Assembly: GCF_009914755.1 (NCBI RefSeq)
Contig: NC_060929.1
Strand: one strand, 5' to 3'
DNA length: 64,000 nt
From: the human T2T-CHM13v2.0 reference genome, Homo sapiens
Positions 11,020 through 29,910 of the stretch are shown here, piece by piece. Under the pieces are notes generated by a model that did not search any database, was not told where the DNA came from, and worked only from the letters and a program-made list of their open reading frames with translations. Made by a program: the position numbers and the translations under genes. The stretch's first letter is position 1, and each line of letters starts with the position of its first letter.

Positions 11020-11555
11020 GAGGCCAAAGGCAGGTGGCAGAGGCAGCCTTGCATCAACTCAGCCACTGTTCCTGGGCTCTACTCCCAACAAGACTTGGAA
11101 CACTGGGTGGTGGCTGTTGGGAGGCAGGAGGAGGGTGATGCTTGGTAGGTCTCCATCATCTGATTTCTCAGGCTCCAGTTGTCTGTTCCTGGAGCAGGGT
11201 GATCCAGCCAAGTGAGGCAGTTAGGGAGTGCATTGGCAGGGCTCAAGGGAGGCTGTGACTTGGGGGCATCTCTGGGGGCATCTGTGTCTCCTCCTGGGTT
11301 GCAGTCATCGGTTCCTAGGTGGGTGGTTCTGTGCCCAGCCTAAAGGTGCTAGGCACTCTGGGTTCTTGTCTCAGGTGGGCCCATTTCAGAAGTCCACAGG
11401 AATGGGAAAGCAATTCAATGTCCTGGTGGTCCCAAGAGATGTGACCCAGCTTTGGATAGAAAGCAGGCTGCCAGGGACTTGAATCCTCTTGTACACTGGA
11501 ACATGCTCTACAGAATCCCAGGCCTCAAGCACAAGTTGTTGAAAGTGCTTCACAT
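11020..11555 (-). pseudogene. ANXA2R (C5orf39)-like pseudogene, best-preserved copy
   Basis: Minus strand: ATG at 11555, frameshift, KHFQQLVLEAWDSVEHVP, frameshift, EDSSPWQPAFYPKLGHISWDHQDIELLSHSCGLLKWAHLRQEPRVPSTFRLGTEPPT* (TAG at 11315-11317) EPMTATQEETQMPPE. Colinear with recalled ANXA2R QHFLGCVKRAWDSAE / EDRGPWPLPLYPVLGEYSLDSCDLGLLSSPCWRL / PGVQSTLEPSTAKPTEFSWPGTQKQQEAPVE (16/34 identities in the core block by eye). Confidence 0.75.
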
Positions 11556-12433
11556 CTGTCCTGTTTCAGGTGACAAAGGATGAGTGCCCTTTTTTGTGGT
11601 CTTCTGGCTGATTAGGCAGTCCCAAGCAGATAGGGGCAAGCTGGGTGGTGACAGGAAGCCCAGAGCTGATCGCAACAGAAGAATGGCCTGGTGTTATAAA
11701 CATAAAAGCCAATCACCTTTGATGAAATTTTCTAGAATGAAATCCTTTTGGTGACAGACTGGGTTAGAAGTTGAAAAGAAGAGTATTAGCTTCCTAGAAG
11801 GAAGCTCTTTTGGGGGACACTGGCTTGTAGTATGCTGCATGATTTGGGGCATGATTATTGCCCCAAATCACATAGGTAGTTCTGAAACCCAGGTCTCTTA
11901 GCAGAGGAATTCTTGGGGAGATGCCTAAGGAATGGTTTGGGTTTTGGATTAGAGGTGGGGCAGAGATAGTTGTACATTCCTAACTTGGACTTTCACAAGC
12001 CCAGTTTTGGCTTTTACTGATGAATTGCTAAGTTAGAAGGATTTCAGAATGTGTGTGTATATGTGTAATAGCAAGAAGCCAAGTTCTCTGGCTGGCTGAC
12101 TCGGTTATTTTATCATCTCTGAAATGGAAGTGAAATTTGCTCTCATTTTACAAGGTAGCTTTCATGAAGGCATTCCATATAAAAGTGAATATTCAACATA
12201 GCATAGCAGAAAATAATTTGGTCAATTGCTATTAATACTAATATCATTATTATTGATTTTATCATGGATTCAAAGATAAAGTAATGAGAACAAATGTAAA
12301 ACGGTACCTTTCTTGGAGTATTCTGTCTGAAAGTAGATTATGTTTCCTTCTCATATCATAGCCATAATGAAATTGTATTGTAATACGTTTTCATCTGAGT
12401 CAAACATTCTGTTTGCAAAAACATCAAGGGGTA

Positions 12434-13817
12434 TGAGAACTAAAAATAAAATCCTAAGGCCTCCAACCAATTGAATGGACCCTCTATTGGCCAAGGGGAC
12501 CCCAGAGAAACCTGAGTTCCTAGCTATGACAAGACAGGAGGTCAGACATAGCTTGTTATACCTACTCCCTTTTGCAGTTTAAACATGACTGACTAGCATT
12601 ATTATTACAATAGGGATCATGAGACTGACAGAACAGACTCCTTATAGCATTAAGACACCAAACTATAAATGAGACCTAAGGCTGTGCCAGGCAAGGGTTG
12701 AATCACACATCTCTACACTTAAAAAACAAATTATGTTCTAACTACCACAAGGTTTTTTTTTTTTTTTCTAGCAGCTAATCAAGCGCTGGCCTCAAGATAA
12801 TCACTATTAAAACCATTACAGTTCATCCATCGCCAGACAGTGACTAACTGAGGCCCTTGTTCCACAAGCTATAAATGCAGCTTTGATTGGACAAGAGACT
12901 GATTTCAGTAACTTTCTCCTAATAAGAAGACCACCAGCATGCACTGTTCACAGAGGCTGTGCACTTGAGTGCCTTCGTGTCCGTGTTTCACCTTTTGACA
13001 TATATGGCCTAACTGTAATACATTTGAATGTTGTCTCCACCCCAGAATGAATATGGGCTGTATGTAACAGGCATATTTATTCAGTACACATGCATTAGGA
13101 ACACATTCATGAATATTTATATGCCTCCTGTAACCTGTTGAATACGTATACTTGGTCAACCCATTCAACATAAATCCCTGTTCCACCCTCCACTTCCTCA
13201 AAGTGCCTGCTTCTGTCTTTGGCTGGGGACTACACTTTCCAGCCTGTCAGAATAACCACCCTACAGGCCATAACACATTATAAGAAATAAAATTAAGTCT
13301 GTGCATGGTGGCTTACATGTGTAATACCAGCACTTTGGGAGGCCAAGGTGGGCAGATCACTTGGGGCCAAAACCAGCCTGGAGTTCAAAACCAGCCTGGC
13401 CAACACGGCAAAACTGCGTCTCTACAAAAAAAAAAAAAGAAAGTTGTCCGGGGACAGTGACTAACACCTGTAATCCCAGCATTTTGGGAGACTGAGGCAG
13501 AGGGGTCACCTGAGCCCAGGGGTTTGAGACCAGCCTGGGTAACATGGAGAAACCCCATCTCTACAAAAAGCACCAAAATTAGCCAGGCATGATGGCACAT
13601 GCCTGTAGTCCCAGCTACTAAGGAGGCTGAGGTGGGAGGATCTCCTGAGTCTGGGGAAGCTGAGGCTACAGTGAGCCATGATTGTGCCATTGCATTCCAG
13701 CCTGGGTGATAGAGTGAGACCCTGTCTCAAAAAAAAAAAAAAAAAAAAAAAAAGAAAAGAAAAGAAAAGAAAATCTCCTTTCTAAATTAATAATTGTGTG
13801 ATTCTTTTAAGTTGACA
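12434..13817 (+). mobile_element. MER4-family solo LTR (ERV1), interrupted by Alus at about 13296-13772
   Basis: Starts TGAGAACTAAAAATAAAATCCTAAG and ends ...AAGTTGACA; similar 4-bp flanks (ggta/gata). Confidence 0.7.
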
Positions 13818-29140: not shown

Positions 29141-29569
29141 GAACTGGCCGGGCGCGGTGGCTCACGCCTGTAATCCCAGCACTTTGGGAGGCCGAGGCAG
29201 GTGGATCACGAGTTCAGGAGTTCAAGAAACAGCCTGGCCAAGATGTTGAAACCCCATCTCTACTAAAAATACAGAAAAAAATTTGCCGGGTGTGGTGGCG
29301 GGCACCTGTAATCCCAGCTACTCCGGAGGCTGAGGCAGGAGAATCGCTTGAACCTGGGAGGTGGAGGTTGCAGTGAGCCAAGATCACACCTCTGCACTCC
29401 GGCCTGGGTGACAGAGCAAGACTCTGTCTCAAAAAAAAAGAAAAAAGAAAACAGCGATGAACTGGGGCACTCCAGCGCTAAGAGGTAGAGGAAAAGAGGT
29501 TGATCCACAAAAAGATCAAGGAGCAGGGTCCAATGAGTTCCATGTTTGCAATAAAAATAAAACAATAAA

Positions 29570-29910
29570 GGCAGCAACACTTGGATATTAGTGGATCCTT
29601 TGACAATAACAACATCCTGGAGGTCTCCAATCTAGGAGAGCAGCAACTATTTCCACACCTGGTTATTATTCCATTTCATATTATTATGCCAAGATGGGAC
29701 AAGAGCCAAACTTGGACAAAGGATTTAGCAGCCACTGTGAACAACACTGCTGAAAAGAAAACTTCTGGCCTAGTGTGCAATCCGTACTTAGCACACTCTT
29801 CTGTGATTTTTGCTACCTGGCCCCTGTCCTGCCTTCTTTCCCAGCACCACAGGAATGATGCAGTACCCTCCAAATTGGGAGTTTCCAAGCCAGAATTAGA
29901 GTTTACTAAG
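29570..29910 (+). pseudogene. Possible highly degenerate ANXA2R-like relic
   Basis: TATGCCAAGATGGGA at 29685 reads YAKMGQEPNLDKGFSSHC versus YPKLGHISWD..LLSHSC of the 11 kb copy; upstream ILEVSN versus VLEAWD. Confidence 0.3.

What the first reader, a model, noticed from the sequence alone, without database searches (positions are those of the whole stretch)
11020..29910. Cryptic mixed-orientation array of decayed ANXA2R-like genes upstream of ZNF131
Seen: once repeats are set aside, the unique islands at about 11.0-11.55 (-), 14.6-14.96 (-), 16.4-16.8 (+), 17.6-18.0 (-), 19.3-19.6 (+), 20.4-20.9 (-), 22.5-22.9 (+) and 29.6-29.9 kb (+) are each about 350-550 bp and carry related motifs. Examples are TTCTATCCAAAGCTGGG (11445-11461), TTTATACCTAAGCTTG (14855-14870), TTTTGCTAAGATGGGA (16545), CTTGCCAAGATG (17856-17867) and TATGCCAAGATGGGA (29685). 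Recalled knowledge: ANXA2R has a single-exon ORF of about 193 aa and lies near ZNF131 on 5p12. Inference: this is the fossil of an old, fast-evolving birth-and-death gene cluster with up to about 8 copies. The ORF track does not show it because of frameshifts. Confidence falls steeply from the first two copies to the rest.
Basis: partly seen in the sequence, partly recalled or inferred. Interest (0 to 1): 0.85.

Follow-up and report, generated by a model that had tools for sequence, protein, structure and literature searches.

The report
Decayed ANXA2R-family gene relics
Two, probably three, of the eight proposed islands are long-dead copies of the antiviral gene ANXA2R (RESIST) or of a sister gene family; they form the outer edge of a larger cluster of such remains, and the other five islands show no such signal.

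Summary
The eight-copy array is not there, but the idea behind it is partly right.

- **Island 1** (CDS-equivalent 10959-11555, unit 10755-12013, minus strand) is a full-length, thoroughly broken ANXA2R-family pseudogene. A DNA profile built without it scores E 2.9e-36. None of 100 shuffled windows reach its tblastn score.
- **Island 4** (17407-17995, minus) is a broken copy of a second local family, "family 2". Its DNA profile scores E 3.5e-78.
- **Family 2** keeps one intact 238-aa ORF at C5:43223874-43224587. It is distantly related to ANXA2R (BLASTP E 2e-6; 0 of 2000 shuffles).
- **Island 3** (16490-16811, plus) is probably a far more eroded family-2 copy. It has two colinear hits on the family's two best-kept motifs; 0 of 300 shuffles reach them.
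- **Islands 2, 5, 6, 7 and 8** give nothing above controls in any test.
- **The quoted AAGATG-type motifs** are at the stated places but are not homologous positions.

Genome-wide searches place at least 14 pieces of the two families, in both orientations, on chr5:43.147-43.356 Mb. The window holds only the ZNF131-side edge. These are ordinary pseudogene relics of a fast-evolving immune gene. Interest is modest.

The parts
10755..12013 (-). Whole duplicated unit of island 1: the ANXA2R-family ('family 1') relic with about 450 bp of 5' flank and about 200 bp of 3' flank
   Evidence: nhmmer with a profile of the two paralogues L003+L009 matches window 12013-10858 at E 4.4e-62, score 201. It resumes at 10876-10755 (E 0.0013) past the point where those copies carry an Alu. 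The DNA is single-copy in the genome at BLAST sensitivity.
10959..11555 (-). CDS-equivalent of the island-1 pseudogene. An ATG at 11555-11553 is followed at once by TGA. There are at least 6 frameshifting indels and in-frame stops: TAG 11317-11315 and TGA 11245-11243.
   Evidence: - Pfam PF15721: 21.4 bits, E 3.8e-4, on 11318-11524(-).
- tblastn with ANXA2R: 43.5 bits, 0 of 100 shuffles reach it.
- nhmmer profile built without this copy: E 2.9e-36, covering hmm 90-691.
- Profile of 29 mammalian homologues: 33.4 bits, E 7.5e-9.
- Reciprocal best hit is the ANXA2R ORF.
- Disablements.
- CpG o/e 0.03.
17407..17995 (-). Island 4: decayed copy of family 2, equivalent to residues about 60-238 of the 238-aa ORF at C5:43223874-43224587. 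It carries several stops and at least one frameshift, and it abuts an Alu at 17018-17384.
   Evidence: - blastn against L022: 65.9% over 578 bp, E 4.4e-28.
- nhmmer with a profile of six copies from outside the window: E 3.5e-78 and 7.8e-82.
- Genome protein search: E 3.7e-7.
- tblastn: 53.5 bits, aligned to the very last residue at 17476.
- K2P distance to the other copies: 0.44-0.50.
17996..18103 (-). Possible remnant of the N-terminus of the island-4 copy (PAALFELSC against PSTLEELSW; ERGQ). About 55 codons between it and the rest would be missing.
   Evidence: Weak only. The protein profile of family-2 homologues hits piece 17876-18103(-) at profile positions 20-50 and 104-118, E 0.2. The motif reading is by eye, using the ORF printed.
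16490..16811 (+). Island 3: probable, very eroded family-2 copy, tail-to-tail with island 4. In one frame it reads LDSFHVLS (family: LDNFPVLS) and EKPED..SCCPYGQGSWNSAL (family: KEPEA..SFCPCGLLHWNCAL), with about 185 nt missing between the two.
   Evidence: - Family-2 DNA profile: 16490-16524 (hmm 95-128) and 16768-16811 (hmm 565-608), both on the plus strand and colinear, E 0.026 and 0.046 in 12.9 kb.
- These are the two best non-Alu hits after island 4 in the whole window.
- 0 of 300 dinucleotide shuffles reach the best score or the chain score.
- Alignments. Frame.
- Read-through protein test: 4.2 bits against a null maximum of 3.5, 0 of 100.

Best explanation
The window holds the ZNF131-side edge of an old birth-and-death cluster of two related single-exon gene families on 5p12.

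**The two families**
- Family 1 is ANXA2R (RESIST) and its copies.
- Family 2 is an unnamed sister family. It shares the N-terminal ~100 residues with ANXA2R.

**What lies in the window**
- Island 1 is a full-length, dead family-1 copy. It was duplicated as DNA together with its flanks.
- Island 4 is a dead family-2 copy.
- Island 3 is probably a still older family-2 copy, lying tail-to-tail with island 4.

**How it came about**
- All three arose by local, partly inverted, segmental duplication long before the primate radiation. This dating is an inference from K2P distances of 0.44-0.88.
- They then decayed neutrally through frameshifts, stops, loss of CpG and Alu insertions.
- They have no coding function now.

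**The rest**
- Islands 2, 5, 6, 7 and 8 are unrelated single-copy DNA. Island 6 overlaps the annotated enhancer.

**Shown versus inferred**
- Shown: the homology, its extent, the disablements and the cluster membership.
- Inferred: the mode and age of duplication, and the lack of present function.
For: **Island 1**
- 1 of 443 ORF pieces from 10.5-30.5 kb hits PF15721, and it is in island 1.
- tblastn scores 43.5 bits against a shuffle maximum of 30.4; 0 of 100 shuffles reach it.
- nhmmer without this copy: E 2.9e-36 over nearly the whole CDS.
- Homology extends to 10755-12013.
- The reciprocal best hit is ANXA2R.
- All 29 mammalian ANXA2R homologues hit it, at 23.5-43.5 bits.

**Island 4**.

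**Island 3**.

**Family 2 is related to ANXA2R**
- BLASTP E 2e-6, 25% identity over 126 aa with no gaps.
- Smith-Waterman score 85 against shuffles of 36.4 +/- 6.1; 0 of 2000 reach it.
- PF15721 partial hits appear in 4 of 28 family-2 homologues. One is a bat protein whose C-terminus matches profile positions 111-176 at 24.1 bits.

**The cluster**
- Family 1 occupies 6 places and family 2 at least 8 places on C5:43.147-43.356 Mb, on both strands.
- Within-family layers of 78-90% identity sit beside much older copies.
Against: - Island 1 stays below Pfam's gathering score: 21.4-24 bits against 27.
- With human ANXA2R alone, island 1 is not significant genome-wide (E 3.8).
- The human family-2 ORF matches no Pfam family at all.
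- None of the family-2 copies appeared in the genome-wide PF15721 search.
- Island 3 rests on bit scores of only 3-4. Shuffles may be too lenient a null, and 34 stretch-by-profile tests were run.
- Its protein pieces were not found by the piecewise searches.
- No repeat library (Dfam) and no other mammalian genome were at hand. An old transposon origin of the five negative islands, or copies decayed beyond detection, cannot be excluded.
Confidence: 0.82

Rival explanations
1. One reading: all eight islands are decayed ANXA2R-like genes forming one array of up to 8 copies between 11 and 30 kb.
For: Island 2 shows a FIPKL motif that recalls FYPKL, and two colinear but negative-scoring family-2 DNA hits.
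Against: - Islands 2, 5, 6, 7 and 8 give nothing in Pfam, tblastn, the family-1 and family-2 DNA profiles, the protein profiles, the read-through test (9-29 of 100 shuffles reach the better of the two profile scores for each) or blastn against 13 cluster loci.
- The island-2 DNA hits are not colinear with its FIPKL motif.
- There is no inter-island similarity beyond shuffles.
Confidence: 0.03
2. Only islands 1 and 4 are real relics. The island-3 signal is a chance match of two short motifs.
For: - Scores are only 3-4 bits, and E is 0.17 and 0.5 in the whole-window scan.
- The piecewise protein searches missed it.
- Many stretch-by-profile tests were run, and other stretches also reached 0-1 of 100 at 1.5-1.7 bits.
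Against: - The two hits fall on the family's two most conserved motifs. They are on the same strand, in the same reading frame and colinear.
- 0 of 300 shuffles reach them, for both statistics and both models.
- An independent protein profile from other mammals agrees on the frame.
- The place lies 600 bp from island 4.
Confidence: 0.3
3. The similarities come from a dispersed repeat or from composition, not from gene duplication.
For: Family 2 also has copies on C5:180.37 Mb and C2:141.71 Mb. The second tblastn hit with ANXA2R (3934-4083) was a pure low-complexity/Alu artefact.
Against: - Island-1 DNA is single-copy in the genome search.
- Above the noise level, PF15721 hits lie only on chr5:43.197-43.349 Mb.
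- Shuffles that keep dinucleotide content never reach the scores.
- Homologues in other mammals are predicted proteins, some named annexin-2 receptor-like.
Confidence: 0.02
4. The relics have been put to a new use, for example as parts of a non-coding transcript or of regulatory DNA for ZNF131 or ANXA2R.
For: Upstream of the window, other relics lie inside annotated lncRNA spans. L004 lies at the start of LOC124906502, and L002 and L003 lie in LOC105374748 and ANXA2R-OT1. This comes from comparing coordinates with the hub's gene table.
Against: The supplied table has no transcript or functional element over islands 1, 3 or 4. CpG o/e is 0.03-0.11, as in long-methylated inert DNA. Nothing here tests expression.
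Confidence: 0.07

Closest known systems
Human ANXA2R / RESIST (Pfam PF15721), 45 kb upstream of the window
   Same: Island 1 aligns colinearly to almost the whole 193-codon single-exon CDS. It keeps the PW..YP.LG..S.D..D..LLS..C core and lies on the same strand in the same cluster.
   Different: About 32% amino-acid and 49% nucleotide identity. The ATG is followed by a stop, there are at least 6 frameshifts and 2 or more stops, and the match is below the Pfam gathering score. ANXA2R binds CCR4-NOT and stabilises IFNB1 mRNA (PMC12310523, passages read). The relic cannot encode such a protein.
The two older human ANXA2R-like pseudogenes at C5:43286831-43287256 and C5:43196984-43197325 (loci L003, L009)
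   Same: They are the closest DNA relatives of island 1: 54% identity over 617-626 aligned bases, with homology that includes the flanks. They too are broken by stops.
   Different: They are 85% identical to each other, so they are a young pair. Island 1 is a separate, much older branch (K2P 0.71-0.72).
Family 2: the 238-aa ORF at C5:43223874-43224587 and its copies. Homologues in other mammals are unnamed 'hypothetical proteins'.
   Same: Island 4 matches residues about 60-238 to the last codon. Island 3 matches its two best-kept motifs.
   Different: 64-67% nucleotide identity against 85-90% among six other human copies. Both islands are broken. The family has no Pfam model and, in my six literature searches, no description.
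Lineage-specific ANXA2R expansions: mouse Resist1/Resist2 tandem pair (PMC12310523, passages) and the horseshoe-bat expansion (PMC13500052, one passage)
   Same: The same gene family shows copy-number turnover, which fits a birth-and-death history.
   Different: Those are intact, expressed, recent copies. The human ones described here are dead, and PMC12310523 states that human ANXA2R is encoded by a single gene.

Membership tests
ANXA2R family (Pfam PF15721): island 1 | Match to the PF15721 profile at or above the gathering score (27 bits) | tested here: not met
   21.4 bits, E 3.8e-4, for ORF piece 11318-11524(-). 24 bits when read through one stop.
ANXA2R family (Pfam PF15721): island 1 | Colinear homology over the CDS to family members, by profiles that do not contain the copy itself | tested here: met
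   nhmmer E 2.9e-36, hmm 90-691. Protein profile of 29 homologues: 33.4 bits, E 7.5e-9, plus an N-terminal piece at 11.6 bits. 0 of 100 shuffles reach the tblastn score.
ANXA2R family (Pfam PF15721): island 1 | Reciprocal best match in the genome | tested here: met
   The best non-self hit of the 69-aa piece is the ANXA2R ORF: 23.8 bits, 40% identity. Its genome-wide E is only 0.18.
ANXA2R family (Pfam PF15721): island 1 | Open single-exon reading frame of about 190 codons with the C-terminal CNOT1-binding region (needed for function, PMC12310523) | tested here: not met
   ATG-TGA, at least 6 frameshifting indels, and stops TAG 11317-11315 and TGA 11245-11243. The C-terminal part aligns as DNA only. 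This is a pseudogene, not a gene.
Family 2 (unnamed ANXA2R-related family): island 4 | Colinear DNA and protein homology to copies outside the window | tested here: met
   nhmmer E 3.5e-78. blastn against 8 loci: 65-76% identity. tblastn 53.5 bits. Open frame not met: 4 TGA and 1 TAA inside the match.
Family 2 (unnamed ANXA2R-related family): island 3 | Colinear homology above controls | tested here: inconclusive
   Two motif-level hits of 3.1 and 2.2 bits; 0 of 300 shuffles reach them. Read-through protein score 4.2 against a null maximum of 3.5. No real-sequence decoy set beyond this window.
ANXA2R superfamily: family 2 as a whole | Detectable relationship between family 2 and ANXA2R | tested here: met
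   BLASTP E 2e-6. 0 of 2000 shuffles reach the Smith-Waterman score. PF15721 sub-threshold hits in family-2 homologues P0014 and P0023. Against this: the human ORF itself has 0 Pfam hits.
ANXA2R family or family 2: islands 2, 5, 6, 7, 8 | Any profile or pairwise signal above shuffled controls | tested here: not met
   In one search, 9 to 29 of 100 shuffles reach the better of the two observed profile scores for each stretch.
Interspersed repeat (transposon) family | Many dispersed copies in the genome | tested here: not met
   Island 1 and the stretches that hold islands 2, 3, 5, 6, 7 and 8 match only themselves, apart from short repeat tails at 15110-15219, 21553-21675 and 30095-30179. The search also missed the known 54-66% paralogues, so old repeats such as MIR or L2 are not excluded. 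No Dfam library was at hand.

The most novel reading that the evidence does not exclude
5p12 preserves the remains of a two-family ANXA2R/RESIST-type antiviral gene cluster that has been expanded and culled repeatedly since early placental mammals. The sister family is not wholly dead in humans. Its 238-aa ORF at C5:43223874-43224587 is kept open and has ORF-bearing homologues in New World monkeys, a seal, a bat, reindeer and sheep. It may encode a second, unrecognised CCR4-NOT/interferon-mRNA regulator.
Probability: 0.15. Interest if true: 0.65.

Novelty: new member of a known kind. Interest (0 to 1): 0.36.

Why it matters
ANXA2R was recently re-defined as RESIST, a CCR4-NOT-binding stabiliser of interferon-beta mRNA. 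It is described as a single gene in humans (PMC12310523, passages read). It is duplicated in mice and expanded in horseshoe bats, where it has dose-dependent antiviral effect (PMC13500052, one passage).

The human locus carries many dead copies of ANXA2R and of a related family. So copy-number turnover of this immune gene is old and was not confined to bats and rodents. The finding also gives dated fossils for reconstructing that history.

For this window alone the practical result is small. It amounts to three unannotated pseudogene relics in an intergenic stretch, and five islands that need no special explanation.

Tried and rejected
- **Six-frame Pfam scan of long stretches.** I replaced it with 443 stop-free pieces.
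- **Second ANXA2R tblastn hit at 3934-4083** (31.2 bits). This is an SPSPSP low-complexity run plus an Alu 'CDLGSLQPP' segment, so it is an artefact.
- **AAGATG-type motifs.** They are enriched only because of Alu copies, and they are not at homologous positions in islands 3 and 4.
- **Island 2's FIPKL motif.** It looks like FYPKL of island 1, but no profile, pairwise or read-through test supports the island. Its two negative-scoring family-2 DNA hits are not colinear with that motif.
- **Genome DNA search with the whole 11020-29910 stretch.** It was swamped by one high-copy repeat at about 27264-28069, with 39 of 108582 candidates scored. It says nothing about the islands.
- **Fetching 198 kb of the cluster for a local census.** The census therefore rests on the genome search lists, which are lower bounds.
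- **Piecewise protein profiles for family 2.** They gave only 10-bit hits on island 4 because the copy is chopped by stops. The DNA profile was decisive instead.
- **dN/dS of the intact family-2 ORF against 5 paralogues.** The values of 0.52-0.77 are inconclusive for constraint.
- **Closest intact relative of island 1.** No homologue among the 29 tested is clearly closest, so no living counterpart was identified.
- **Literature.** Six full-text searches found no description of human ANXA2R pseudogenes or of family 2. Subscription journals and supplements were not covered.
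Full report
**Observation**

The eight islands lie in stretches that are not repeated inside the window, between Alu-type repeats (self-BLAST map). The islands are not similar to one another. In an all-against-all blastn with 7-base words, the best inter-island score is 26.8 bits, and 7 of 100 shuffles reach it. 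The shared core GCYAAGATG occurs 9 times in the window against about 0.8 expected, but 5 of the 9 lie in Alu copies. So the set of "related motifs" is not, as a set, more than chance.

**Test against ANXA2R itself**

I cut 10500-30500 into all 443 stop-free pieces of 30 aa or more, in six frames, and scanned them against Pfam. Exactly one piece, 11318-11524(-), hits PF15721 (ANXA2R): 21.4 bits, E 3.8e-4, below the 27-bit gathering score.

The window's own genome is searchable. PF15721 finds ANXA2R at C5:43292330-43292905(-) with 311 bits. It also finds further pieces on chr5:
- 43272972 (88 bits);
- 43286831 (44 bits, 2 stops);
- 43247926 (26 bits);
- 43349261-43349497(-) (24 bits), which is window 11261-11497;
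- 43196984 (19 bits).

Hits on other chromosomes have E 0.15-6.4.

With the 193-aa ANXA2R ORF taken from that locus, tblastn on the window gives 43.5 bits at 11488-11228(-), linked to 22.3 bits at 11550-11497(-). One hundred block-wise dinucleotide shuffles reach at most 30.4 bits. The next hit, at 3934-4083 (31.2 bits), is an SPSPSP/Alu artefact. Everything else scores 25.4 bits or less, a level reached in 39 of 100 shuffles.

**Island 1**

A DNA profile built from ANXA2R and four paralogous pieces, without island 1, matches window 11525-10959(-) at E 2.9e-36 over profile positions 90-691. That is nearly the whole CDS. A profile of the two closest paralogues (L003, L009) extends the homology to 12013-10858 (E 4.4e-62). 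It picks up again at 10876-10755, beyond the point where those copies carry an Alu. So a unit of about 1.26 kb, flanks included, was duplicated as DNA.

Further support:
- A protein profile of 29 mammalian ANXA2R homologues scores 33.4 bits (E 7.5e-9) on 11318-11524(-) and 11.6 bits on the N-terminal piece. Nothing else in 2838 window pieces exceeds 6.9 bits.
- The 69-aa piece has the ANXA2R ORF as its best non-self match in the genome.

The copy is dead:
- its ATG (11555-11553) is followed at once by TGA;
- at least six indels shift the frame;
- TAG 11317-11315 and TGA 11245-11243 interrupt it;
- it has 1 CpG in 531 bp (o/e 0.03).

It is 54% identical to L003 and L009 and 49% identical to ANXA2R (K2P 0.71-0.88). 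None of the 29 homologues is clearly closest to it.

**Island 4 and a second family**

The protein search also turned up C5:43223907(+), an open frame of 238 codons from its ATG. Including it in the DNA profile produced a hit at 17980-17822(-). Directly, that locus aligns to window 17945-17422(-) at 65.9% over 578 bp, E 4.4e-28.

The ORF defines a family, here "family 2", with copies at:
- C5:43.147-43.169 Mb, where six matches correspond to about five copies (72-81% amino-acid identity for the four strongest, 38-45% for two weak ones; all with stops);
- C5:43223874-43224587, the only match that covers the whole ORF without a stop;
- 43313614;
- window 17476-17745 (E 3.7e-7);
- C5:180.37 Mb;
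- C2:141.71 Mb.

A DNA profile of six copies from outside the window matches 17995-17407(-) at E 3.5e-78. The amino-acid alignment runs to the family's last residue, at 17476. Island 4 is thus a broken family-2 copy, with K2P 0.44-0.50 to the others. A weak match suggests that a remnant of its N-terminus lies at 18103-17876 (E 0.2).

**Is family 2 ANXA2R-like?**

Evidence for:
- BLASTP of ANXA2R against the 238-aa ORF gives 32.3 bits, E 2e-6, 25% identity over 126 residues without gaps, starting near both N-termini.
- The Smith-Waterman score of 85 is reached by 0 of 2000 shuffles, whose mean is 36.4 with sd 6.1.
- Homologues of the ORF exist as unnamed predicted proteins in two New World monkeys, a seal, a fruit bat, reindeer and sheep.
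- Of 28 such proteins scanned, 4 have PF15721 hits. Two look like fusions of neighbouring family-2 and ANXA2R genes (sheep 52.5 bits, seal 18 bits). One bat protein has a family-2 N-terminus and a C-terminus that matches ANXA2R profile positions 111-176 (24.1 bits). One unnamed protein matches profile positions 18-124 (17 bits).

Evidence against:
- The human ORF itself has no Pfam hit.
- The genome-wide PF15721 search found no family-2 copy.

I take family 2 to be a distant sister of ANXA2R that has been its neighbour since before the split of primates and Laurasiatheria.

**Island 3**

In the whole-window scan with the family-2 DNA profile, the two best non-Alu hits after island 4 both lie in island 3, on the plus strand and colinear (E 0.17 and 0.5). 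Restricted to the 17 unique stretches (12.9 kb), they have E 0.026 and 0.046. They fall on the family's two best-kept motifs:
- 16490-16524 reads LDSFHVLS, for LDNFPVLS;
- 16768-16811 reads SCCPYGQGSWNSAL, for SFCPCGLLHWNCAL.

Both are in one reading frame. None of 300 dinucleotide shuffles of the stretch reaches the best score or the two-hit chain, with either of two models. A protein profile built from the other mammals, run on read-through frames, gives 4.2 bits in the same frame, against a null maximum of 3.5 (0 of 100).

The scores are small and many tests were run. I rate island 3 at about two in three to be a real, very eroded family-2 copy. It would lie tail-to-tail with island 4, across the Alu at 17018-17384.

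**The other islands**

Islands 2, 5, 6, 7 and 8 give nothing in:
- Pfam;
- tblastn;
- either DNA profile;
- the protein profiles;
- blastn against 13 cluster loci;
- the read-through test, where 9 to 29 of 100 shuffles reach the better of the two observed profile scores for each stretch.

Its only DNA hits have negative scores and are not colinear with that motif.

In the genome search, the stretches that hold these islands match only themselves, apart from short repeat tails. That search also missed the known 54-66% paralogues of islands 1 and 4, so an old-repeat origin is not excluded. Island 6 has 19 CpG (o/e 0.52) and overlaps the enhancer 20512-20621 of the supplied table.

**The larger picture**

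From, chr5:43,146,871-43,355,995 (209 kb) holds family 1 at 6 places: ANXA2R itself, two 5' fragments that share about 1.6 kb at 78-80% identity with it, a pair of pseudogenes 85% alike, and island 1. It holds family 2 at 8 or 9 places, plus island 3. Both strands are used, and there are young layers (K2P 0.11-0.24) beside old ones (0.44-0.88).

At the usual mammalian neutral rates (recalled, about 1-2.2e-9 per site per year), the old copies predate the primate radiation. This is an inference, and the larger distances are near saturation.

It lies mostly upstream of the window, it is made of two families, and it puts three relics, not eight, into 11-30 kb.

**What is known**

ANXA2R is now called RESIST. 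It binds CCR4-NOT, through CNOT9 and, by its C-terminal region, CNOT1, and it stabilises IFNB1 mRNA. The paper states that the human protein is encoded by a single gene and that mice have a tandem pair (PMC12310523, passages read). A review reports an ANXA2R expansion in horseshoe bats with dose-dependent antiviral effect (PMC13500052, one passage). Six full-text searches found no account of human ANXA2R pseudogenes or of family 2. Paywalled work, supplements and pseudogene databases were not covered.

**Verdict**

- The relics are ordinary unprocessed pseudogenes: new members of a known kind.
- Interest is modest.
- The most novel lead lies outside the window: the intact 238-aa family-2 ORF.

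Noticed in passing
outside the window: G000 C5:43223874-43224587 (+) (loci L022, L027): An intact 238-codon ORF of the ANXA2R-related family 2. It is the only match that covers the whole ORF without a stop. Homologues are predicted 'hypothetical proteins' in New World monkeys, seal, bat, reindeer and sheep. It has no Pfam family. dN/dS against 5 human paralogues is 0.52-0.77.
   Followed up: partly
outside the window: C5:43272972-43273172 (+) (L002) and C5:43247926-43248018 (+) (L004): Two duplicates of the ANXA2R 5' region share about 1.6 kb at 78-80% identity, including the first 64 and 32 codons. L002 keeps a 73-aa open frame. By the hub's table they fall in or at the start of lncRNAs LOC105374748 and LOC124906502, so copied ANXA2R upstream DNA may drive those transcripts (inference).
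   Followed up: no
window about 27264-28069: A roughly 800-bp interspersed repeat with many copies of 82-89% identity on many chromosomes. It has an internal tandem duplication around 27811-27999, where an ORF reads a repeated FLQSADW.IYKP.ARHRALIG. The family was not identified.
   Followed up: no
window 3934-4083 (-): A proline/serine (SPSPSP) low-complexity run next to an Alu segment. It gives a spurious 31-bit tblastn match to the proline-rich N-terminus of ANXA2R.
   Followed up: yes
window 20400-20900: Island 6 is the only island that is not depleted of CpG: 19 CpG, o/e 0.52, against 0.00-0.12 in the others. It overlaps the RefSeq enhancer 20512-20621.
   Followed up: partly
outside the window: C5:180367322-180368064 (-) and C2:141711197-141711874 (+): Dispersed family-2 copies far from the 5p12 cluster, with 81% and 54% amino-acid identity and with stops. 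Whether they arose by segmental duplication or by retroposition was not examined.
   Followed up: no
window 18623-18924 (-): Just beyond the Alu upstream of island 4, this stretch gives tiny scores with both family profiles in the same frame: 1.5 bits (1 of 100 shuffles reach it) and 1.7 bits (0 of 100). It could be a further fragment, or chance.
   Followed up: no
window 49075-49559 (-): This stretch matches the 3' flank shared by loci L003 and L009 (nhmmer E 1.1e-17, profile positions 1875-2397). It is probably a shared old repeat and not part of the gene family.
   Followed up: no
proteins P0031 (sheep) and P0021 (seal): Predicted proteins that join a family-2-like segment and an ANXA2R-like N-terminus in one model. 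They are most simply read as gene models that merge two neighbouring genes, which shows that the two families are adjacent in those species too.
   Followed up: partly
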